A DNA stretch of 64,000 bases from Staphylococcus phage vB_Sau_P68: sequence record OL741057.1; one strand, written 5' to 3'. Every line of letters starts with the position of its first letter. Within the stretch, counting starts at the first letter, position 1. The notes beneath the pieces were generated by a model. That model worked only from the letters and a program-made list of their open reading frames with translations. It did not search any database and was not told the DNA's origin. This document shows, piece after piece, positions 107 to 12,652 of the stretch. The position numbers and the translations under genes were made by a program.

Positions 107-135
107 ATAATATCATGGTAGGGCTTGGAAGTCAA
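107..135 (-). promoter_or_regulatory. sigma-A-like early promoter (minus: TTGACT-N17-TATTAT); its -35 sits inside the palindrome GGGCTTGGAAGTCAAGCCC (121-139)
   Basis: read directly from sequence; consensus hexamers with 17-nt spacer. Confidence 0.6.
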
Positions 136-149
136 GCCCTTTATTTAAT

Positions 150-597: not shown

Positions 598-626
598 TTG
601 ACAAAAGGGGCAAAATTTGAGATAAT
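598..626 (+). promoter_or_regulatory. plus-strand promoter TTGACA-N17-GATAAT for the HNH gene
   Basis: sequence. Confidence 0.5.
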
Positions 627-658: not shown

Positions 659-1144
659 ATGATTGAAAATAAAATTAATGAAGATTGGAAACTTATAAAA
701 AAATTATCTAATGAAAATAATAAATATTATGTTTCTAATAACGGAATTGTTAAAAGTAGTATCAAAGGAAAAGAAAACACCTTAACAAATTTTCCAAATA
801 AAAAAGGGTATTTAATGGTTAGAATAGCAAAAAGAAATATAAAAGTTCATAGGCTTGTATATGAATATTTTGGAACAGATTTCAATAAAGATTATCATGT
901 ACACCATAAAGACGAAAACAAACAAAATAACTGTATTGATAACCTAGAATGTATTAGCCCATCAGAACATACCACACATCACAATAAAACTGATGATTTT
1001 AGATACAAAAGAGGTAAAGCACCAACACAAAAAGAAATTAAAGAAATAAAACAGAAATACAAGCCATATAAATATACTGCACCGATGTTATCAAAAGAAT
1101 ATAATTTGAGTGTAGATACAATAAAATATATTTTAAAAAATTAA
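659..1144 (+). CDS. HNH homing endonuclease (NUMOD4-like N-terminus + HNH_3-type motif)
   Basis: WKLIKKL...YYVSNNGIVKS (NUMOD4-like); GYLMVRI...HRLVYEYF...HHKDENKQNNCIDNLECISPSEH (HNH_3); orientation opposite to neighbours; own promoter. Confidence 0.75.
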   Translation: MIENKINEDWKLIKKLSNENNKYYVSNNGIVKSSIKGKENTLTNFPNKKGYLMVRIAKRNIKVHRLVYEYFGTDFNKDYHVHHKDENKQNNCIDNLECISPSEHTTHHNKTDDFRYKRGKAPTQKEIKEIKQKYKPYKYTAPMLSKEYNLSVDTIKYILKN

Positions 1145-1152
1145 TTTAAGTA

Positions 1153-1181
1153 TTGACAATAAGTAGCAAACATAGTATAAT
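1153..1181 (+). promoter_or_regulatory. plus-strand consensus promoter TTGACA-N17-TATAAT with no ORF downstream
   Basis: sequence. Confidence 0.55.
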
Positions 1182-1333
1182 TGAGATGAGTGGTTATTTT
1201 TTTTTAAAAAAGGACGGATTTGCCCCGAAACCCCTTCTTTGGTCTTGGGCTCCTTAACCTTATATCTATATTATACTATGGATTGAAAGAAATGTCAACA
1301 CTTTTTTATAAACTTTTTTAATTAATTTAAGTA

Positions 1334-1362
1334 TTGACAAGTGGGAGCAAAATTGATATAAT
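1334..1362 (+). promoter_or_regulatory. plus-strand consensus promoter TTGACA-N17-TATAAT with no ORF downstream
   Basis: sequence. Confidence 0.55.
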
Positions 1363-1486
1363 GGGGGTGGAGGGTATTTTTATCTATAATTTTTTTATAT
1401 AATATTATTTTTATACGAAAAAAAGTCATCACTTCATTATCTCATTTTTTCGTACATTTGTCAAGCACATATTCAAAAAGAAATAA

Positions 1487-1521
1487 CCGCTTCAAATTAT
1501 TAAATAAGAAGCGGTTTATAT
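1487..1521 (-). terminator. rho-independent terminator, probably bidirectional (AACCGCTTC...GAAGCGGTT hairpin with T-runs on both strands)
   Basis: sequence. Confidence 0.6.
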
Positions 1522-1528
1522 AATTTTT

Positions 1529-1711
1529 TTATTTAAATAAAATTTCATCTTCAAATAATTGAATAGTCTTGTTATCAACCTTACAGATAAATATATAAGT
1601 TTCTGAATCATTAAAATCGTATTCTGATTTAGATAAAGGTTTTATAATTTCTACATTTGAGTTGTTTAATTTTTTTAATTCTGAATCATTTGTATTTAAT
1701 AGAGTAGTCAT
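1529..1711 (-). CDS. hypothetical small protein (60 aa)
   Basis: ORF track; followed by a terminator. Confidence 0.4.
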   Translation of the reverse strand: MTTLLNTNDSELKKLNNSNVEIIKPLSKSEYDFNDSETYIFICKVDNKTIQLFEDEILFK

Positions 1712-1766
1712 ATTATCATTTCCTTTATTGTATAATTTTTTTATATAATGCCTAGGGAATAAATCC

Positions 1767-2168
1767 CTAGAACATTAAATCATGTAGCTCATAAGATAAT
1801 AAACTTAAATCTTCATATTCTACAATGTATAGCACACCATTAACTTTTATGCTAATTGCTTCTTGTTGATAAAAAACAATCAACTGTCTAGCAATTTTAG
1901 AAATGGCGTGTAATAACCCTTGTTGGTCGTTCACGTCCTCCATATCCTTGTCATAGTACCATTCAAAGTTAGTGTTATTGTCTTGCATTATACGTTGTTC
2001 ATTGTCTGACCACCATTGACCTTTAACGTCTGTAGTAGTACAACCTCCACATATTTTAGTGATATTTTCTAATGATTCACGAATTGCTAAGTTGTCAATC
2101 TCAACACCGTTGTTATCTTCCTTAGGTACGATAATTTCCACTTTATTTTGTAATTTGAACATTTTCAT
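1767..2168 (-). CDS. hypothetical protein (start moved to MKMFK)
   Basis: the longer ORF-track start would overlap promoter 2207-2235; RBS aaaaggaa before ATGAAAATG. Confidence 0.55.
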   Translation of the reverse strand: MKMFKLQNKVEIIVPKEDNNGVEIDNLAIRESLENITKICGGCTTTDVKGQWWSDNEQRIMQDNNTNFEWYYDKDMEDVNDQQGLLHAISKIARQLIVFYQQEAISIKVNGVLYIVEYEDLSLLSYELHDLMF

Positions 2169-2248
2169 CAATTCCTTTTCTGATTTGTATTTTTTAACTA
2201 TCTTAATAATAACATGCCAGGGCTTGGAAGTCAAGCCCTATTTTAAAA

Positions 2249-2572
2249 TTAATCTTCATAAATGAATAAGTTTTTGCTTGGTAAGTATCTGAAGTTTGGT
2301 GCAATCCCTAAGCAATATACAAGCGTGTTGAGGCTATCACGGTCTGAATTGCTTTCACCATAGTACGAAACAATTTCATTTACGCTTAAGTCAATCTCAA
2401 TCGTTTGAGTTCCCCAATGTCTCATAACCAATTTGTTTCCGTCAATCTCAATTGCGTATTTTTCCTCAAGCTCACCCTTGCTATATCCGTCAAAGTAACG
2501 ACCGTTTAAAATTGCTTGCCCTTTGTTTTCAGCTTTTTCCAATAAGTTTTCAATAGTTTTGATAAATTTCAT
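2249..2572 (-). CDS. hypothetical protein
   Basis: ORF track; RBS aaaaggaattgat; tandem promoters upstream. Confidence 0.55.
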   Translation of the reverse strand: MKFIKTIENLLEKAENKGQAILNGRYFDGYSKGELEEKYAIEIDGNKLVMRHWGTQTIEIDLSVNEIVSYYGESNSDRDSLNTLVYCLGIAPNFRYLPSKNLFIYED

Positions 2573-2738
2573 TTGTATCAATTCCTTTTCTGTTTGATTT
2601 GTTATACTAAGTATATCATGTGGCTAAGTGACTTGTCAACAGTTTTTTTAAAACTTTTTTTACTAGGTTGGAAGTGGTTTGTCCGCTTCCCTTACCTTGT
2701 ATCTTAATAATAACATGTAATGTTTAAGTTGTCAACAG

Positions 2739-3020
2739 TTATTTAAAAGTATTTTCAATTTCTTTTATTAATTCTTGAGCATTTGGGAAGTTTAAAGTGT
2801 AACCGTAAAAGTCAATACATACGTTCCCTAAGTCTTCATCTAAAAAGTCGGGAATAATAAAAAGACTCTCAACTTTTCCGTCACGTATAAAGCTTGGTGT
2901 GATATCCTCATAAGCACCACTAGGGCTTGTGATTTCTAATACTGTAATAGTTTCATCGTATTCAAATTCGTACCCTTTGCTTTCTAGTGTTTCAATTACG
3001 TTGTTTAATGTGTTTTTCAT
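2739..3020 (-). CDS. hypothetical protein (93 aa)
   Basis: ORF track. Confidence 0.55.
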   Translation of the reverse strand: MKNTLNNVIETLESKGYEFEYDETITVLEITSPSGAYEDITPSFIRDGKVESLFIIPDFLDEDLGNVCIDFYGYTLNFPNAQELIKEIENTFK

Positions 3021-3091
3021 AATAAATCAATTCCTCTCATTTGGTATATATTAATAATAACATGCTAGGGCTTGAAAGTCAAGCCCTTTAT

Positions 3092-3520
3092 TTAATTAAT
3101 TTCTTTTATCCAATCTTTTTCAATTCTGTTATATACGCATTGCACTTCTTCCTTTAGTTGTGGTTTTTCAAATTCTGATTTTATTAAGTCCACTGTGTCA
3201 AATTCTTCTTCATCGGCAAAATAAGCTAAGTCTGAAAATGAGTAATAATCATGTGCAAAGTATTCAGATGTTGGAATTTCTAACGTTAAAGTTATCTCAT
3301 TTTTTAAAGAGCTTAATGATGTTATTTCTTCAATACGTCCCTCATTCTCTTTCATGTAATCATTTTCTAACATTCCAAAGAATAAACCTTTATAGCCAGT
3401 AATTTCTTTCAAATAATCGTAAGCATAATCTGAAAATGATGTATCATTTTTAGCGTAACAAACTCCCTCATTATTTATTATTTCTAAAACTTCATTCGAT
3501 ACTTTTGTTATAATTTTCAT
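3092..3520 (-). CDS. hypothetical acidic protein (142 aa)
   Basis: ORF track; two tandem TTGACA-N17-TATTAT promoters upstream at 3555-3690. Confidence 0.55.
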   Translation of the reverse strand: MKIITKVSNEVLEIINNEGVCYAKNDTSFSDYAYDYLKEITGYKGLFFGMLENDYMKENEGRIEEITSLSSLKNEITLTLEIPTSEYFAHDYYSFSDLAYFADEEEFDTVDLIKSEFEKPQLKEEVQCVYNRIEKDWIKEIN

Positions 3521-3686
3521 AATTAATCAATTCCTTTTCTGTTTGTTTTTGTTATCTTAATAATATCATGGTTTCAAGTTACTGTCAATAGTTTTTTTAA
3601 ACTTTTTTTATTTAGGTTGGAAGCGGTTGACCGCTTCCCTTACCTTGTATCTTAATAATAACATGTAGTGCTTAAGTTGTCAACAC

Positions 3687-3995
3687 TTATTTAAAACTTT
3701 CTATATAAGCATTTTCATCAAGTCCAACACGTGAATTAAAATCTTTTAAGTTTTCATATGTTGGATTTATCCAAATTCCATTCACTACATTTTCATGGTG
3801 TTCTTGCATTTCTTCAATAGTATCAAATATATCTAACCAATCCGTCAATTCATCTATAGTGTCATTTGTCACGTCACCTAGGTAATTGCTTTCTACAGTT
3901 AAATCTTTCATTAGGTTGTCTAATCCAATTGCTAATAATTCCGGACTTTCAAAACCACTGTAAGAGTAAAATTTCAAGTTTTGTACGTTTTTCAT
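3687..3995 (-). CDS. hypothetical protein (start at MKNVQ)
   Basis: ORF track; the RBS spacing favours the second ATG. Confidence 0.5.
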   Translation of the reverse strand: MKNVQNLKFYSYSGFESPELLAIGLDNLMKDLTVESNYLGDVTNDTIDELTDWLDIFDTIEEMQEHHENVVNGIWINPTYENLKDFNSRVGLDENAYIESFK

Positions 3996-4063
3996 TTGTA
4001 TCATTTCCTTTTTGTTTTATTTGTTATCTTAATAATATCATGGTTTCAAGTGACTGTCAAGCC

Positions 4064-4222
4064 TTATCTTAAAAAAATATTTATGTTATCTTGTAGTAGT
4101 AAAAACCAATTTACAAGCTTAGGCGTGATTGATGCAACTAAACCGCCTATAATAAGTAAAAGGATATTGTCCGTTTTTTGTGTTGATTTGATTGTTTTGT
4201 TTTTCCATTTAAATTTTAGCAT
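4064..4222 (-). CDS. small hydrophobic membrane protein (~52 aa: MLKFKWKNKTIKSTQKTDNILLLIIGGLVASITPKLVNWFLLL...)
   Basis: found by hand; GGGAGG RBS 8 nt before the ATG; TTGACT promoter at ~4255-4290; same strand as neighbours; replaces the plus-strand ORF 3981..4352 in the track. Confidence 0.4.
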   Translation of the reverse strand: MLKFKWKNKTIKSTQKTDNILLLIIGGLVASITPKLVNWFLLLQDNINIFLR

Positions 4223-4319
4223 TTGTGTTGCCTCCCTTGTTGGTATACCTATATATTACTATAAGAATAAACATAAGTCAATAGGTTTTTTAAATCTTTT
4301 TGAAAAAGTTAAAATAATA

Positions 4320-4345
4320 AAAAGCCCACATAATAGTAGGCTTTG
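4320..4345 (-). terminator. rho-independent terminator (AAAGCC...GGCTTT hairpin + T-run on the minus strand)
   Basis: sequence. Confidence 0.45.
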
Positions 4346-4348
4346 TGT

Positions 4349-4495
4349 TTAACTCCAATTTATAGCTTGTCTTTCTTTTTGTAGTTCAAGCAATCTCATT
4401 TGTAAAGAGCTTGCTTGTGCTTTACTGTTTTCATTATGTTTTATCATTTCTTTAACCTCAGTGATTTCTCTTTTTACTATTCTAATATCTCTCAT
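4349..4495 (-). CDS. small protein (~47 aa: MRDIRIVKREITEVKEMIKHNENSKAQASSLQMRLLELQKERQAINWS)
   Basis: found by hand; TTGACT promoter at ~4560-4590; terminator immediately downstream. Confidence 0.35.
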   Translation of the reverse strand: MRDIRIVKREITEVKEMIKHNENSKAQASSLQMRLLELQKERQAINWS

Positions 4496-4627
4496 TTTAA
4501 CAACCGCCTTTTTTTTATTTGTTTTCCTAATTGCTATACCTATATATTAAACCATAATAAGATATAAGTCAATAGATTTATTGAAATTAATTTAAAAAAC
4601 TTTTTTGAATAAAAGTATTGACAATAA

Positions 4628-4656
4628 GTCCGAATTATTATATAATGGAAGTGGAG
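4628..4656 (+). promoter_or_regulatory. plus-strand consensus promoter TTGACA-N17-TATAAT with no ORF downstream
   Basis: sequence. Confidence 0.55.
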
Positions 4657-4721
4657 CCTTTTTTTATCTATAATTTTTTTATATAATAATAAAAGAAAGT
4701 AAAAAAAGTTTCTGAAAGGTG

Positions 4722-4750
4722 TTGACAATTATGGTTATTCATAGTATACT
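4722..4750 (+). promoter_or_regulatory. plus-strand promoter TTGACA-N17-TATACT, convergent with the minus-strand promoter at ~4890-4925
   Basis: sequence. Confidence 0.5.
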
Positions 4751-4984
4751 ATATATAGAAAGTAAAACAGTGGTAACCCGCCTAACCCTTCCACTATAAA
4801 TATGACAAGGTGGGGAGAAAGAGCGGTTCTAAAACCATTTAATATAAATTTTTTATACAATAATTTTTTTATACTAAAAAAGGTCTTCACTTCATTATAC
4901 CATAAAAAATATATTCTTGTCAACAGTCAATTTTACACTAATTTATTTATTAAATAATTTTTTTATATAAATTTAAACAAATAA

Positions 4985-5012
4985 AAAACCCTAGGAATTT
5001 AATCCCAGGGAA
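4985..5012 (-). terminator. rho-independent terminator (CCCTGGGATT..AATTCCTAGGG hairpin + T-run on the minus strand)
   Basis: sequence. Confidence 0.5.
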
Positions 5013-5025
5013 TTCTATAATTTTT

Positions 5026-5292
5026 TTATACTTCTAACATTGTATTTAAATCTTCTAACACTTCAATAATATAATTATGAAATAATATAGGTGTAACATT
5101 AGAATTTTTATATAACTTTTCTTCATCTGTTATAATTGCATTATTTAATGCAATACTATCTTGAATTTGAAAATAATTATTTAATTCTTTTAATTCATTT
5201 AAAGTTACATCATAATTGAGTGCAATTCTATTTATTTCTTCATTAGTTCCAAAAAGTACAGTTTTAATAATTTTATTTAATTTTTTATTCAT
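5026..5292 (-). CDS. hypothetical protein (88 aa)
   Basis: ORF track. Confidence 0.5.
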   Translation of the reverse strand: MNKKLNKIIKTVLFGTNEEINRIALNYDVTLNELKELNNYFQIQDSIALNNAIITDEEKLYKNSNVTPILFHNYIIEVLEDLNTMLEV

Positions 5293-5341
5293 AATATCAT
5301 ATCCCTTTTTTATAAATTTTTTATTTAATTCAGAAGCGGTT

Positions 5342-5635
5342 TTAATTCTTAACCGCTTCTATTTCTTTAACTTTGTCTAGTGCAAAATTTAATGTATCTT
5401 CTATATTATAACTTTGGAATACTACACCGCCGCCAAACCATTTTGCACGATATTTATTAAAGCCATACATCATATTGATTTTGTCATAGTCCCATAAACC
5501 AATACCAAGGTCATAGAAGTCCACTACATAACGTGGGTTTCCGTTTACATCATTGGGAATTCTGAACACTTCAATTTCTTTTCCTTGTACTGTGTGAGTT
5601 TCTGTGTATACGTAATTTTTAGCCATAATAATCAA
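5342..5635 (-). CDS. hypothetical protein (97 aa)
   Basis: ORF track. Confidence 0.55.
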   Translation of the reverse strand: MIIMAKNYVYTETHTVQGKEIEVFRIPNDVNGNPRYVVDFYDLGIGLWDYDKINMMYGFNKYRAKWFGGGVVFQSYNIEDTLNFALDKVKEIEAVKN

Positions 5636-5736
5636 ATCCTATTCTATAATTTTTTTATTTAATTTCTGTTCCGTGTGCTTGTGTTCCTTACATCTATTAT
5701 ATTACTACATCTTTAGGGCTTTTGCAAGCCCTATTT

Positions 5737-6045
5737 TTAAATTTCTTCAATAAATTTTATTTCTTTATCTTTCACACCGTACACCGTATTTTCATATACG
5801 ATTATAATCACATCGTCAATTACATTAACCAACATGCTAGCCGGTTGTGTTTGCCTTCTCATGCTCATGAGAGGCGTTTTGCGGAACATTTGAATAGTTT
5901 CATAGTTTCCCTTAACGCTCACTATTAAAGCTGTGTGTGTGCGTGTGTGGTTCACTGTGCTTTCATACAGTGGCGGTTCTGAACATCTGTACCCATCCAT
6001 CTGCCATAGCTCCTGGATAGTATCTGCAATTTCTTTGATTTCCAT
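5737..6045 (-). CDS. hypothetical protein (102 aa)
   Basis: ORF track. Confidence 0.5.
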   Translation of the reverse strand: MEIKEIADTIQELWQMDGYRCSEPPLYESTVNHTRTHTALIVSVKGNYETIQMFRKTPLMSMRRQTQPASMLVNVIDDVIIIVYENTVYGVKDKEIKFIEEI

Positions 6046-6351
6046 TTAAATCAATTCCCTTCGTGTTATTTATTACACTACTAATATTAAAGGATAGCCG
6101 GCAATAAGTCAATAGATTTATGAAACTTTTTTAAAAAACTTTTAAAGCCCTTTTTTTGCTTTATATAGTAGAAACTGGAAATTAAGCAAAAAATAAATAG
6201 TATAATTTTTTTATATAAATCTATATATAAGACAGACAGACCCCTCCAATTATTATGATAAAGGATAAACACCGATTTGTCAAGCACCAATTTTACACTT
6301 TTTTAAATTGTCATAAAGTGTAAAACTTCTCATTTAATTTGCTAAAAAGTA

Positions 6352-6436: not shown

Positions 6437-6721
6437 ATGATAATTTACAATGAGGACAACACGCAACTAATCGAATTTTTTGAAGGGCTTAACAATGGTA
6501 TGGCAATTAATCAAACGTTCCGAGGTCATTCTTATGAGTTCTATAAGGAAAACGGGAATATCCTAGTAAGACTTGAAGGTGAAACAATCGGTCACATGGT
6601 GCAAAGTGAGTACCGTCACACATATGAAAGCGTTCAATATGAAAATTGGGAAACTGAACAAGTTAGGGTAATTGAATGGTTGGATGAATTAGATGCCTAC
6701 GAATTTGAATACGAAGTATAA
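6437..6721 (+). CDS. hypothetical protein (94 aa), plus strand
   Basis: ORF track; RBS aaaagga; own promoter and own terminator. Confidence 0.55.
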   Translation: MIIYNEDNTQLIEFFEGLNNGMAINQTFRGHSYEFYKENGNILVRLEGETIGHMVQSEYRHTYESVQYENWETEQVRVIEWLDELDAYEFEYEV

Positions 6722-6740
6722 TATATAAAAAAATTATAGA

Positions 6741-12116: not shown

Positions 12117-12608
12117 TTATCCCCCTCTTACATCTGTTTCATCACCTAGACTAATAATATGTTCATTACTAAGTAATTTTTGTTTTACTTCTTCTTGTTT
12201 TTCCTTACGTTTTATATGTTCTGATTCTACTTCCTTCACTATATCAAGTATATATTCAGTTATCCAATCAAATTTCTTTAATTCTTCTGTTGAATATTTT
12301 TGACATCTAATATTCCAATCTAACTCCCTATAGTAAATACAATCTTCAATTGTTATTTTTAGACTTCTTTCACTGAAATGTTCATTTATGACTCTAAATG
12401 ATGTTGTACCATTATCTAATAGTACTGGATTGTATTCCCAGTCTTTAAAAAACTCTCTCCATGTTAAATGTGCAGTATCTTGAAGTCTACCTAGTTCCTT
12501 GTAATATTCCTTCTGCTGTTTCTTTTTAATACAACCTTTAATAACAGTAATACCTAACGTATATATAGTAAGTATTACAAGAGTTATAAATATGTTAAAT
12601 AAAAACAT
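12117..12608 (-). CDS. membrane-anchored protein (N-terminal TM helix; 163 aa)
   Basis: ORF track; hydrophobic N-terminus. Confidence 0.55.
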   Translation of the reverse strand: MFLFNIFITLVILTIYTLGITVIKGCIKKKQQKEYYKELGRLQDTAHLTWREFFKDWEYNPVLLDNGTTSFRVINEHFSERSLKITIEDCIYYRELDWNIRCQKYSTEELKKFDWITEYILDIVKEVESEHIKRKEKQEEVKQKLLSNEHIISLGDETDVRGG

Positions 12609-12652
12609 TATATTTCCTCCTTATAGAATGATTCTTTTATTTAATATTACCT

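What the first reader, a model, noticed from the sequence alone, without database searches (positions are those of the whole stretch)
1153..1470. Convergent promoter pair with no ORF between: candidate sense/antisense small RNAs (locus 1)
Plus-strand consensus promoters lie at 1153-1181 and 1334-1362 (TTGACA-N17-TATAAT) in a region where every protein gene is on the minus strand. They are followed only by short G-rich then U-rich sequence (GGGGGTGGAGGGTATTTTTATCTATAATTTTTTTATATAAT...). A minus-strand promoter at ~1425-1461 faces the second one from ~65 bp away. The overlapping transcripts would form an RNA duplex. This could be transcriptional interference or an antisense-RNA regulatory pair. 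A small-peptide/antitoxin pair was considered, but no RBS-bearing peptide ORF was found.
Basis: partly seen in the sequence, partly recalled or inferred. Interest (0 to 1): 0.55.

Follow-up and report, generated by a model that had tools for sequence, protein, structure and literature searches.

The report
Head-on promoters around phage small RNA
In the first-expressed end region of a Staphylococcus Kayvirus-type phage, four near-perfect host-type promoters face each other around a short conserved hairpin RNA and no protein gene.

Summary
The window begins in the long terminal repeat (early, host-takeover region) of a Staphylococcus Kayvirus-like phage. A fourth, perfect leftward promoter (P-1, 1298..1270) was missed, and so was a + strand HNH homing-endonuclease gene (659-1144) immediately upstream.

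The four promoters alternate in direction: P+1 faces P-1, and P+2 faces P-2. In 14 homologous loci their hexamers are almost invariant (2/48 variable columns). Spacers (48/68) and initial transcribed sequences (36/56) vary freely, so promoter activity is what is conserved. No reading frame is conserved.

The best-conserved transcribed sequence is leftward. It is a ~58-nt hairpin RNA from P-1 that ends in U6. It looks like a short, inverted paralog of an RNA at the second locus (4751-4854, +), which forms an H-type pseudoknot with strong covariation and adjoins phage K 'snc002'.

The rightward promoters belong to the family that drives the LTR HNH genes. Thirty relatives carry this site without an HNH gene.

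Most likely reading: an early small-RNA gene opposed by head-on antisense promoters (transcriptional interference plus RNA duplex). Transcripts and function are inferred, not shown.

The parts
598..626 (+). Promoter of the HNH gene (TTGACA-N17-GATAAT, TG-extended). It is the left copy of the duplicated rightward promoter that flanks the HNH cassette.
   Evidence: In HNH-free relatives this promoter is fused directly to the sequence that follows P+1.
659..1144 (+). Free-standing HNH homing-endonuclease gene (161 aa).
   Evidence: ORF. Pfam HNH_3 E=3.2e-12 plus a weak NUMOD4 match (E=9.7e-4, 19.8 bits, below its 23.4-bit cutoff); PHROG 59 E=4e-34. 73% DNA identity to the phage K gp013 cassette. 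Absent at this site in 30 relatives and present in 1.
1153..1181 (+). P+1: rightward consensus sigma-A promoter. Predicted start ~1187-1188. It fires head-on at P-1.
   Evidence: 12/12 match. The equivalent promoter is present in all 14 homologous loci, with 1/12 variable hexamer columns against 14/17 for the spacer.
1197..1211 (.). T9-A6 run. On the - strand it reads as the U6 tail of the P-1 RNA followed by A9. On the + strand it is a U9 run 10 nt after the P+1 start.
   Evidence: Sequence. The length of the whole T/A stretch between the flanking GG dinucleotides (window 1194-1211; this part is its 1197-1211 core) is 18, 19 or 20 nt in relatives, i.e. not in multiples of 3. U5-U6 is retained in all 14.
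1206..1264 (-). P-1 transcript: a ~58-nt conserved hairpin RNA ending in U6. It is the short-form member of the LTR RNA family. Helix GGAGCCC (1253-1247) / GGGUUUC (1233-1227); alternative 5' partner AGACC (1245-1241).
   Evidence: 96% mean column identity in 14 loci. MFE -18.1 kcal/mol, z -1.67. The helix is 100% paired and has two invariant G-U pairs that work only on this strand. In Stab23 the changes at columns 18, 25 and 40 are mutually compensatory. CM R1 aligns it in register at 17.4 bits.
1270..1298 (-).
   Evidence: 12/12 match. Hexamers 0/12 variable in 14 loci. The spacer end and initial transcribed sequence resemble those of the locus-2 RNA promoter.
1299..1333 (.). A/T-rich region shared by the back-to-back promoters P-1 and P+2 (likely UP-element DNA).
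   Evidence: Sequence; conserved. The same back-to-back module occurs at 524-626 and 4544-4646 (repeat families D2, D3, D7).
1334..1362 (+). P+2: rightward consensus promoter, TG-extended. Predicted start ~1368-1369. It fires head-on at P-2.
   Evidence: 12/12 match. Hexamers 0/12 variable, spacer 11/17, initial transcribed sequence 12/14 variable.
1385..1416 (.). Invariant A/T-rich block containing one copy of the LTR-wide motif TATAATTTTTTTATATAA.
   Evidence: Invariant. The motif occurs 11 times against 0.34 expected, with 9 copies in 1385-6218, all in + orientation. It is a deletion end-point in phiIPLA-RODI.
1414..1454 (.). Weak A/U-rich inverted repeat (10 bp arms) around the -10 and start of P-2.
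   Evidence: Fold -6.2 kcal/mol, z -2.9. One G:C to U:A exchange is seen in some relatives, but the repeat is absent in others. Minor feature of uncertain significance.
1436..1464 (-). P-2: leftward promoter (TTGACA-N17-GATAAT, TG-extended). Predicted start ~1429-1430. It is an upstream tandem promoter for the P-1 RNA region.
   Evidence: 11/12 match. A full TTGACA -35 is found in 8 of the 14 loci, with 1/12 variable hexamer columns. In CUB-B, V1SC01 and PSU4 the -35 reads TTTACA. The promoter is absent in Stab23, 184DA and RODI.
1485..1535 (.). Bidirectional intrinsic terminator: 9-bp stem at 1485-1516, with U-rich tails on both strands. It ends the upstream - strand gene (1529-1711) and probably the P+2 and P+1 transcripts.
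   Evidence: Folds of -12.5 (+) and -15.1 (-) kcal/mol, z -3.5 and -4.4. The stem is invariant and the loop varies in relatives.
4751..4854 (+). Paralogous long-form RNA at locus 2 (promoter 4722-4750). H-type pseudoknot: stem 1 4769-4773/4791-4795, helix 2 4777-4783/4808-4814. It is faced by the leftward promoter 4923..4894.
   Evidence: 87.5% of cells paired; covariation score 0.371 against 0.101+-0.025 (0/500 shuffles); slid controls <=0.11. CM 110 bits. 265 phage records hold the region. The phage K snc002 equivalent is window 4818-4863.

Best explanation
The stretch is the non-coding core of a small-RNA locus in the early-expressed long terminal repeat of a Staphylococcus Kayvirus-like phage.

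Two leftward host-sigma-A promoters, P-2 and P-1, transcribe a short conserved hairpin RNA. The P-1 product is about 58 nt and ends at a U6 run. The P-2 product would be about 225 nt. This RNA is the short form of an LTR RNA family whose long form, at the second locus, is an H-type pseudoknot.

Two rightward promoters, P+1 and P+2, fire head-on into P-1 and P-2, from about 76 bp and 60 bp respectively. They make no protein, and their transcribed sequence is free to vary. What is selected is therefore the act of transcription and the resulting perfectly complementary RNA. The predicted rightward RNAs are about 155 nt (P+2) and about 340 nt (P+1), both ending at the bidirectional terminator at 1485-1535.

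The proposed mechanism has two parts. First, polymerase collision or promoter occlusion (transcriptional interference). Second, sense/antisense duplex formation that limits the amount or timing of the leftward small RNA and, reciprocally, of rightward transcription.

The rightward promoters belong to the family that expresses the free-standing HNH homing-endonuclease genes of the LTR. In this phage an HNH cassette is inserted at the P+1 site and is flanked by two copies of the promoter (598-626 and 1153-1181). The leftward hairpin-U6 also shields that gene from antisense read-through.

Shown: the promoters, their selective conservation, the lack of a conserved ORF, the conserved leftward hairpin, the paralogy, and the covariation at locus 2. 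Inferred: that the transcripts exist with these ends, and that interference or antisense pairing is their function.
For: Promoters: four sites at 11-12/12, against 1.87 expected in the whole window.

Selection on the promoters: in 14 homologous loci from Kayvirus, Baoshanvirus, unclassified Twortvirinae and metagenomes, 2/48 hexamer columns vary, against 48/68 spacer columns and 36/56 initial transcribed columns (Fisher p~1e-14). For the + promoters alone the figures are 1/24 against 46/62.

No coding constraint: indels are not in multiples of 3, frames are truncated, and start codons are not conserved.

Leftward RNA: 96% column identity. Hairpin plus U6. The helix at columns 16-22/36-42 is 100% paired and has invariant G-U pairs that only work on the - strand. 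Stab23 carries coordinated changes at three mutually pairing positions.

Paralogy with the locus-2 RNA: the promoter end and 5' sequence are shared, and helix 2 is shared. The CM aligns the P-1 RNA in register (17.4 bits; E 0.0086 in a 300-bp search, 1.8 in 64 kb). A SAP23 hairpin-only form at locus 2 scores 44.5 bits, E 2e-4.

Locus-2 pseudoknot covariation: 0/500 shuffles reach the observed score.

HNH link: the phage K gp013 HNH gene sits exactly in the window's empty site between 4653 and 4685, under the homologous promoter. At locus 1 the HNH-free junction is found in 30 records, and the occupied junction in 1 record plus this window.

Published support: the K gp013 promoter is consensus yet expressed as 'middle', and an HNH-strand small transcript (snc002) is seen in the paralogous spacer (PMC9241854). 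The ISP record annotates the convergent promoter pair at locus 2.
Against: There are no transcript data for this locus. Phage K, the only Kayvirus examined for small RNAs, lacks the P-1 block.

Covariation for the P-1 hairpin rests on one divergent genome, Stab23 (197/500 and 23/500 shuffles reach the observed values).

The CM hit on the P-1 RNA is not significant in a whole-window search (E 1.8).

The hairpin-U6 is a modest terminator. Leftward transcripts might read on towards the gene at 150-413.

The locus is mosaic. P-2 and the A/T block are missing in Stab23, 184DA and RODI, and the P-1 block is missing in PALS_1, PG35 and vB_Sau_CG. No single pair is therefore indispensable.

Hexamer invariance could partly reflect recombination among paralogous promoter copies.
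Confidence: 0.45

Rival explanations
1. The rightward promoters are only expression and landing sites of the mobile HNH homing-endonuclease cassettes. Where no HNH gene is present they are left-over or waiting promoters, and the short RNAs they make have no regulatory role.
For: Both 'a'-position rightward promoters carry an HNH gene in some genomes: window 598-626 drives HNH 659-1144, and the K gp013 promoter is the homolog of window 4618-4646. The HNH cassette is flanked by two promoter copies, as expected if the promoters serve as homology arms. O1-102 carries a K-type HNH at locus 1.
Against: 30 records keep a perfect empty promoter at locus 1, against 1 occupied record. P+2 (P+b) never carries a gene in the 14 loci, yet it has 0/12 variable hexamer columns. 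Each rightward promoter is positioned head-on to a leftward one.
Confidence: 0.2
2. The region is a by-product of cassette shuffling in a modular LTR. Promoter modules in both orientations are recombination scars or spare parts, perhaps acting only as an RNA polymerase sink, and none of the RNAs has a function.
For: The LTR is full of repeated promoter modules (families D1-D7). Architectures differ between relatives through deletion, inversion-like swaps and replacement. The motif TATAATTTTTTTATATAA marks deletion end-points.
Against: Hexamers stay perfect while everything around them drifts. The P-1 transcribed block is more conserved than the promoter spacers (96%). Its long-form paralog shows compensatory changes in two helices.
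Confidence: 0.12
3. P-2 and P-1 are extra upstream tandem promoters for the next leftward early gene (150-413). The hairpin plus the SD-like AAGGAG would then be a 5' stabiliser leader, as in the snc003-type leaders. The rightward promoters merely insulate.
For: The same layout (promoter, then AAGGU(U)AAGG plus a hairpin, then an A-run, then the next promoter) precedes genes at 2735->2639 and 3683->3588. It corresponds to the expressed K snc003. In HNH-free relatives only ~250 bp separate P-1 from the promoters of the next gene.
Against: The hairpin is followed by an invariant U5-6 run. A consensus promoter (P+a) fires against any read-through. In this window 600 bp of antisense HNH would have to be crossed.
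Confidence: 0.12
4. It is a transcription-activated replication origin or R-loop site: a strong promoter, then a G-rich RNA start, then an invariant A/T-rich unwinding block. This would resemble T7 or T4 origins.
For: In this window P+2 is followed by GGGGGTGGAGGG and then a 32-nt invariant A/T block with no ORF.
Against: The G-rich start is not conserved. The A/T motif occurs 9 times at gene junctions across the LTR. The block is deleted in RODI, Stab23 and 184DA. No iterons or initiator boxes were seen.
Confidence: 0.04
5. It is a type I toxin-antitoxin-like pair or a micro-peptide gene. One candidate is the 35-aa - strand frame 1322-1432, which starts at the P-2 transcription start. Another is the 23-aa + strand frame starting at ATG 1186.
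For: Convergent promoters with a bidirectional terminator resemble par/Fst-type loci. The ATG at 1429-1427 coincides with the predicted P-2 start, so the message could be leaderless. The frame is open in several relatives.
Against: There is no SD sequence. The frame is cut to 15 codons in CF7 and V1SC01, and its N-terminus is changed radically in IMG/VR contig L013. Its C-terminal half is simply the complement of the P+2 promoter. The + frame is broken by 1- and 2-nt length changes in the T/A run. Small ORFs annotated in CUB-B, V1SC01 and 184DA disagree with one another.
Confidence: 0.03

Closest known systems
Convergent-promoter transcriptional interference in phages (coliphage 186 pR-pL, face-to-face 62 bp apart); from my own knowledge of the literature, not checked here
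   Same: Two strong sigma-70-type promoters fire head-on from about 60-76 bp. There is no terminator between them and the transcripts overlap.
   Different: Here there are two interleaved pairs. No repressor gene or lysis/lysogeny decision is involved, since the phage is strictly lytic. One partner is a small structured RNA rather than an operon. Interference has not been measured.
Phage K small non-coding RNAs snc002 and snc003 (Finstrlova et al. 2022, PMC9241854)
   Same: Same phage group and same LTR region, with small transcripts from early sigma-A promoters. snc002 lies on the HNH strand in the spacer after the HNH gene. snc003 is a promoter-proximal hairpin leader like the P-1 RNA.
   Different: snc002 maps to the second locus (window 4818-4863), directly 3' of the pseudoknot found here. 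It shares only the A/T block with locus 1. Phage K has no P-1 block, which is present in only 34 records. The paper gives neither structure nor antisense partners.
Annotated promoter pair and ORF142 downstream of the HNH gene in phage ISP (FR852584.1)
   Same: The ISP record already annotates a rightward promoter overlapping the HNH terminator and a leftward promoter facing it.
   Different: ISP treats the interval as a 44-aa ORF (ORF142). Here that interval holds a covarying pseudoknot RNA plus the A/T block, and the ORF has no SD and no conserved start.
Free-standing HNH homing-endonuclease genes of phages
   Same: An HNH_3/NUMOD4 protein with its own promoter and presence/absence polymorphism at the same site among close relatives.
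   Different: The finding itself is not the endonuclease gene. It is the promoter array next to it, which persists where the gene is absent.
SD-like 5' stabiliser elements of Bacillus phage SP82 early RNAs and cryIIIA STAB-SD; from my own knowledge of the literature
   Same: SD-like purine tracts (AAGGAG, GGAGG) lie within the first 10-20 nt of transcripts that have no start codon after them.
   Different: Not present in all variants of the + promoters. Stability was not tested.

Membership tests
Kayvirus early (host sigma-A) promoters as defined by RNA-seq in vB_SauM-515A1 (PMC7698491) | -35 TTGACW, 17-bp spacer, -10 TATANT | tested here: met
   All four sites score 11-12/12 with 17-bp spacers.
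Kayvirus early (host sigma-A) promoters as defined by RNA-seq in vB_SauM-515A1 (PMC7698491) | TRTGN extension upstream of the -10 | tested here: met
   TG is present before the -10 of P+2 and P-2 but absent in P+1 and P-1. The extension is not obligatory in the published set.
Kayvirus early (host sigma-A) promoters as defined by RNA-seq in vB_SauM-515A1 (PMC7698491) | A coverage step or mapped transcription start at the site early in infection | not testable with these tools
   No reads are available. Only the homologous K gp013 promoter is listed, as a promoter of a gene of the middle class.
Cis-antisense RNA pair / convergent-promoter interference | Two promoters face to face with no terminator between their start sites | tested here: met
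   P+1/P-1 starts are ~76 bp apart and P+2/P-2 starts ~60 bp apart. For P+2/P-2 only weak A/U pairing lies between them. For P+1/P-1 the leftward hairpin-U6 lies inside the overlap and could stop P-1 transcripts before they reach P+1.
Cis-antisense RNA pair / convergent-promoter interference | Both overlapping transcripts detected, with reciprocal effects on their levels | not testable with these tools
   Needs strand-specific RNA mapping and promoter mutants.
Phage K snc002 (PMC9241854) | Orthologous position and sequence (HNH strand, spacer between the HNH gene and the next Tre gene) | tested here: not met
   snc002 aligns to window 4818-4863 at locus 2. Locus 1 shares only a 56-nt A/T block (K q858-913 = window 1385-1440).
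LTR promoter-proximal RNA family defined here (long form = pseudoknot at 4751-4854) | Helix 2 (7 bp) with a central invariant G-U pair | tested here: met
   In the P-1 RNA, GGAGCCC pairs with GGGUUUC. All 7 pairs are standard in 12 distinct sequences, and G-U is central. The long form is 96.4% paired with 4 covarying pairs.
LTR promoter-proximal RNA family defined here (long form = pseudoknot at 4751-4854) | Stem 1 (AGNGG/CCNCU) crossing helix 2 to give the pseudoknot | tested here: not met
   The P-1 RNA lacks about 21 nt, including the 3' strand of stem 1. It is a hairpin-only short form, like the SAP23 locus-2 variant.
LTR promoter-proximal RNA family defined here (long form = pseudoknot at 4751-4854) | Significant covariance-model score | tested here: inconclusive
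   17.4 bits. E is 1.8 over the 64-kb window (rank 6) and 0.0086 over 300 bp. The hit is in register with the promoter.
Type I toxin-antitoxin | Small hydrophobic ORF with a ribosome-binding site, conserved as a reading frame | tested here: not met
   No SD sequence. Frames are broken or truncated in relatives.
Free-standing HNH homing endonuclease cassette (flanking element) | HNH catalytic domain, and presence/absence polymorphism at one site | tested here: met
   Pfam HNH_3 E=3.2e-12. Empty junction in 30 records and occupied junction in 1. The K HNH gene lies in the window's empty site 4653/4685.
Free-standing HNH homing endonuclease cassette (flanking element) | Cleavage of the empty allele and homing | not testable with these tools
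   Needs an enzyme assay or co-infection crosses.
Any Rfam family | Score at or above the gathering threshold | tested here: not met
   0 hits in the whole window. Only chance-level hits (E>=0.09) appear at 1100-1600 and 4600-5050.

The most novel reading that the evidence does not exclude
The Kayvirus LTR encodes a previously undescribed family of very early small RNAs. The long form is an H-type pseudoknot. The short form is a hairpin whose 3' strand can pair with either of two upstream segments, and both of those segments co-vary with it in Stab23, which suggests a two-state RNA. Each RNA gene is faced by a dedicated head-on consensus promoter that sets its level. On this reading the RNAs act in host takeover, for example by binding a host protein or the ribosomal anti-SD through their conserved AGAAAG/GGAGAAAG tracts. 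The mobile HNH genes would have settled in the antisense promoters of this system.
Probability: 0.17. Interest if true: 0.75.

Novelty: new variant of a known kind. Interest (0 to 1): 0.5.

Why it matters
Kayviruses are the main therapeutic phages against Staphylococcus aureus. Their terminal repeat is the first DNA to be expressed, and almost nothing in it has a known function.

This analysis turns a vague 'intergenic' gap into testable parts with coordinates:
- promoters kept perfect by selection although they make no protein;
- a conserved leftward hairpin RNA;
- a covarying pseudoknot paralog present in about 265 sequenced phages.

It also explains why a consensus host-type promoter (phage K gp013) behaves as 'middle' rather than 'early', through head-on early promoters. 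It links free-standing homing endonucleases to a resident antisense promoter system. Finally, it flags small ORFs annotated in several GenBank records as probably spurious.

Tried and rejected
Rfam: gathering thresholds on the whole window, and permissive thresholds on both loci, gave nothing credible. There are no tRNA or tmRNA genes.

Peptide and toxin readings:
- The + frames from 1153, 1186 and 1220 were rejected. Their start codons are not conserved, and the T/A run changes length by 1-2 nt.
- The - frame 1322-1432 was rejected. It has no SD, it is truncated in CF7 and V1SC01, and its C-terminal half is the complement of the P+2 promoter.

Structure in the + strand transcripts of locus 1: none was found beyond the terminator and a weak A/U inverted repeat that is not universal.

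Trans target of the P-1 RNA: there is no second match to its 19-nt core in the 64-kb window with <=3 mismatches. Host targets could not be searched.

Search for more distant copies of the P-1 block: 34 phage records, 2 IMG/VR loci and one mis-binned MAG contig, all nearly identical. Covariation power is therefore low.

Resemblance to a CRISPR repeat (an RNA anti-CRISPR idea): compared by eye with the staphylococcal type III-A repeat from memory. It lacks the repeat's CCCC/GGGG hairpin. The idea was dropped and not tested further.

A third hairpin in the locus-2 RNA (columns 77-80/85-88): only 56% paired, so not supported.

A degenerate pattern scan of IMG/VR gave 47 loci, but only a handful were true family members by CM.
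Full report
CONTEXT

The first 6 kb of the window match about 300 Staphylococcus Twortvirinae genomes, mostly Kayvirus. The matching regions are annotated as the long terminal repeat (LTR), which carries the terminal-repeat-encoded 'Tre' early genes. Across the window almost all consensus promoters lie on the - strand. The finding therefore sits in the host-takeover region, which published RNA-seq shows to be transcribed within 2 min of infection (PMC9241854; PMC11598898).

CHECKING THE OBSERVATION

The scan confirms three promoters:
- P+1 at 1153-1181, 12/12 matches.
- P+2 at 1334-1362, 12/12 matches, with TG extension.
- A leftward promoter at 1464..1436, 11/12 matches, with TG extension.

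I call this one P-1 and the outer leftward one P-2.

TTGACA-N17-TATAAT with at most one mismatch occurs 34 times in the window, against 1.87 expected from shuffles. Only five copies are on the + strand: 598, 1153, 1334, 4618 and 4722.

Transcription starts lie 6-7 nt after the -10 in Kayvirus (PMC7698491). The head-on pairs are therefore P+1/P-1, with starts ~1188 and ~1264, and P+2/P-2, with starts ~1369 and ~1429.

A 161-aa ORF on the + strand (659-1144) ends 9 bp before P+1 and is an HNH endonuclease (Pfam HNH_3 E=3e-12; PHROG 59 E=4e-34). It has its own promoter at 598-626.

On the right, a 9-bp hairpin at 1485-1516 has U-rich tails on both strands. It is a plausible bidirectional terminator.

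ARE THE PROMOTERS MORE THAN DECORATION?

I collected 14 homologous loci: Kayvirus, Baoshanvirus PSU4, unclassified coagulase-negative-host Twortvirinae, an IMG/VR contig and a mis-binned MAG contig.

The alternating architecture recurs, with hexamers at or near consensus. Counting variable alignment columns gives:
- hexamers: 2/48
- spacers: 48/68
- first 14 transcribed nt: 36/56

Fisher's test gives p~1e-14. For the rightward promoters alone the figures are 1/24 against 46/62.

The columns are not independent, and the spacers fall into a few recombining 'types'. Even so, the contrast is what selection on promoter function predicts. It also shows that the sequence of the rightward transcripts is not what is conserved.

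NO CONSERVED READING FRAME

The T/A run after P+1 is 18, 19 or 20 nt long in different phages. This breaks every + frame that crosses it. The TTG at 1220 lies in a 5-nt hypervariable patch.

The - frame 1322-1432 begins at the P-2 start, but several things count against it:
- It has no SD sequence.
- It is cut to 15 codons in CF7 and V1SC01.
- Its N-terminus changes radically in IMG/VR contig L013.
- Its C-terminal half is simply the complement of the P+2 promoter.

Small + strand ORFs annotated in CUB-B, V1SC01 and 184DA disagree with each other.

THE HNH CONNECTION

In SAP23, Sa87, CF7 and others there is no HNH gene. A single rightward promoter is fused directly to ...GGTTATTTTTTTTTAAAAAAGGACGG.... 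In this window, and in vB_SAP01, an HNH cassette is inserted and is flanked by two promoter copies (598-626 and 1153-1181).

A megablast of each junction finds the empty junction in 30 records. The occupied junction is found in one record besides the window.

At the second locus the situation is reversed. The phage K HNH gene gp013 lies exactly between window positions 4653 and 4685, under a promoter homologous to 4618-4646. The window is the empty allele there. The K promoter sequence is listed in Table S2A of PMC9241854, where gp013 is 'middle' despite a consensus sigma-A promoter.

The rightward promoters therefore belong to the family used by the LTR homing endonucleases. They persist, in perfect form, where no endonuclease gene exists. 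P+2 never carries a gene in any of the 14 loci.

THE CONSERVED PART IS LEFTWARD

The most conserved segment of the locus runs from the P-1 -10 to the T/A run, with 96% mean column identity.

Read on the - strand it is: UAUAAGGUUAAGGAGCCCAAGACCAAAGAAGGGGUUUCGGGGCAAAUCCGUCC UUUUUU.

It folds at -18.1 kcal/mol, with 49.5% of the ensemble in the MFE structure and z -1.67. The + strand version folds no better than shuffles.

Variation is concentrated in the apical loop and in a 5-nt internal patch. Covariation is thin, because the 34 records that hold the block are very similar.

Two alternative helices are possible: GGAGCCC/GGGUUUC, or AGACC/GGUUU together with GCCC/GGGC. Each shows one compensatory exchange, both in Stab23. 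In Stab23 the single 3' change (U to A at column 40) is matched by changes in both possible 5' partners (column 18 A to U; column 25 G to U). The first helix is 100% paired in all 12 distinct sequences. It contains two invariant G-U pairs that would be C-A mismatches on the + strand, which argues that the functional strand is the leftward RNA.

A PARALOGOUS, WELL-SUPPORTED STRUCTURED RNA AT LOCUS 2

Following the repeat families and the K comparison, I aligned the rightward sequence downstream of the promoter at 4722-4750 with its homologs. These were K, ISP, MCE-2014, T-SE-E1, SAP1, 184DA, O1-102, vB_SAP01, the Sepunaviruses SEP1 and C1C, and Sciuriunavirus SscM-1.

RNAalifold predicted a 7-bp helix with compensatory changes in 4 pairs. 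Together with a 5-bp stem that crosses it, this makes an H-type pseudoknot:
- Stem 1: 4769-4773 with 4791-4795. Variants AGCGG/CCGCU, AGUGG/CCACU and AGAGG/CCUCU.
- Helix 2: 4777-4783 with 4808-4814. Variants GGAGCCU/AGGUUCC, CCCGCCU/AGGUGGG, CCAGCCU/AGGUUGG and CCUGCAU/UUGUAGG.

On 12 distinct sequences 87.5% of cells pair. The covariation score is 0.371, against 0.101+-0.025 in shuffles (0/500 reach it) and <=0.11 when partners are slid. Stem 1 is 100% paired and helix 2 is 96.4% paired, with an invariant central G-U.

The region occurs in 265 phage records and has no Rfam match. Phage K 'snc002' (K 5022-5067, HNH strand) corresponds to window 4818-4863. That is the segment directly 3' of helix 2, so snc002 is probably part of the same transcript (inference). 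The ISP record annotates both the rightward promoter and the leftward promoter facing it, and calls the interval ORF142. That ORF has no SD and no conserved start.

LINK BETWEEN THE TWO LOCI

The P-1 promoter and its transcript align with the locus-2 promoter and RNA. They share the spacer end CATAGTATAAT/ACT, the start AUAGAUAUAAGG / AUAUAUAGAAAG, and UAAGGAGCC. About 21 nt, including the 3' strand of stem 1, are missing from the P-1 RNA. The alignment then resumes with AAGAAGGGGUUUCGGGG against AAGAGGUUCCGGG.

A covariance model built from the locus-2 alignment with helix 2 only gives these scores:
- window 4751-4854: 110 bits.
- the P-1 RNA: 17.4 bits, rank 6 of the window, placed in register and forming helix 2 with standard pairs. 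E is 1.8 over 64 kb and 0.0086 over 300 bp.
- a hairpin-only variant at locus 2 of SAP23: 44.5 bits, E 2e-4. This bridges the two forms.

I conclude, with moderate confidence, that the P-1 RNA is a short, inverted-orientation member of this family. At both loci the RNA gene is faced by a consensus promoter on the other strand.

MOST LIKELY MECHANISM

Leftward promoters P-2 and P-1 make nested RNAs that end at the hairpin-U6 (~1206). Rightward promoters P+1 and P+2 make RNAs that are fully complementary to them. These rightward RNAs run to the bidirectional terminator, or stop earlier in the U-runs at 1197-1205 and 1390-1396.

Only the promoter elements of the rightward units are conserved. Their selected role is therefore best explained by transcription itself, through collision or occlusion, and by cis-antisense pairing.

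The published 'middle' timing of the K HNH gene, despite its consensus promoter, fits suppression of rightward transcription while the early leftward promoters are most active. This is indirect support only.

Everything about transcript ends, duplexes and regulation is inference. No expression data exist for locus 1.

RIVALS

(i) The rightward promoters are merely HNH expression or landing sites.
(ii) The array is a recombination by-product of a modular LTR.
(iii) P-2 and P-1 are extra tandem promoters with a stabilising leader for the gene at 150-413, like the snc003-type leaders at 2735->2639 and 3683->3588.
(iv) The region is a transcription-activated origin.
(v) The region encodes a type I toxin or micro-peptide.

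The evidence for and against each is given in the rival-explanation entries. Rivals (i) to (iii) are not excluded. They overlap partly with the favoured reading.

NOVELTY AND SCORE

Head-on promoters and phage antisense RNAs are known kinds. Kayvirus sncRNAs and the ISP promoter pair have been noted before. Four things are new:
- the two-pair architecture at locus 1;
- evidence that the promoters, and not their rightward products, are under constraint;
- the conserved leftward hairpin RNA;
- its relation to a covarying pseudoknot RNA that is absent from Rfam.

I rate this a new variant of a known kind, with interest 0.5.

Noticed in passing
window 1385-1402, 1519-1536, 1731-1748, 4669-4686, 4843-4860, 4953-4970, 5311-5328, 5645-5662, 6201-6218 (also 6721-6738 and 12595-12612 on the - strand): The 18-nt motif TATAATTTTTTTATATAA occurs 11 times with <=2 mismatches, against 0.34 expected. 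Nine copies lie in the LTR, all in the same orientation, at gene and module junctions. On the - strand the motif often sits between a hairpin and the next gene's SD. In phiIPLA-RODI the sequence between the copies at 1385 and 1731 is deleted. In phage K the HNH gene replaces the copy at 4669. The motif may be a recombination or homing junction, or an RNA 3'-end or translation signal.
   Followed up: partly
window 120-140, 2218-2240, 3067-3087: The G+C-rich hairpins AGGGCTTG(G/A)AAGTCAAGCCCT act as terminator-like elements. They also contain the -35 (TTGACT) of the next leftward promoter (135..107, 2234..2206, 3082..3054). These are fused terminator-promoter units between early genes.
   Followed up: no
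window 2640-2735 and 3589-3683 (- strand): Tandem early promoters are separated by a ~65-nt leader: AAGGUAAGGGAAGCGG...CCGCUUCC hairpin followed by an A-run. They are homologous to phage K snc003 (95% and 85% identity). A truncated copy lies at 464-527.
   Followed up: partly
window 4802-4957 (+); ISP ORF142 (L021:821-955): A 44-51-aa ORF is annotated in ISP across the 3' part of the pseudoknot RNA, the A/T block and the facing promoter. It has no SD, and its start differs between phages (GTG in ISP, ATG inside the pseudoknot here). It is probably spurious.
   Followed up: partly
L016 (Stab23) 1038-1160 and L017 (184DA) 1038-1160: In these phages P+b is followed directly by a perfect A/T palindrome and the terminator, giving a compact ~80-nt rightward unit with no facing P-2. 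Its start, GAAGTGATGAC, is the sequence that follows P-2 on the other strand in this window. This suggests inversion between the inverted promoter copies.
   Followed up: no
L015 = JAKDZT010000317.1 (2155 bp): A contig binned as a Tetragenococcus sp. MAG carries this Staphylococcus-phage LTR locus almost unchanged, with all four promoters. It is most likely phage DNA mis-binned from a food metagenome.
   Followed up: no
L008 (CUB-B) 436-1202, L009 (V1SC01) 319-1305, L017 (184DA) 643-1606: Several GenBank records annotate chains of 32-83-aa + strand 'hypothetical proteins' across this promoter array. The frames are not conserved between records, so they look like over-annotation.
   Followed up: partly
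L019 (O1-102) 1581-2340: A third allele of locus 1: the left promoter drives a K-type HNH gene, followed by the long-form pseudoknot RNA on the + strand and then P-2. Here the HNH-plus-RNA module replaces P+a, the P-1 block and P+b. This shows exchange of whole modules between the two loci.
   Followed up: partly
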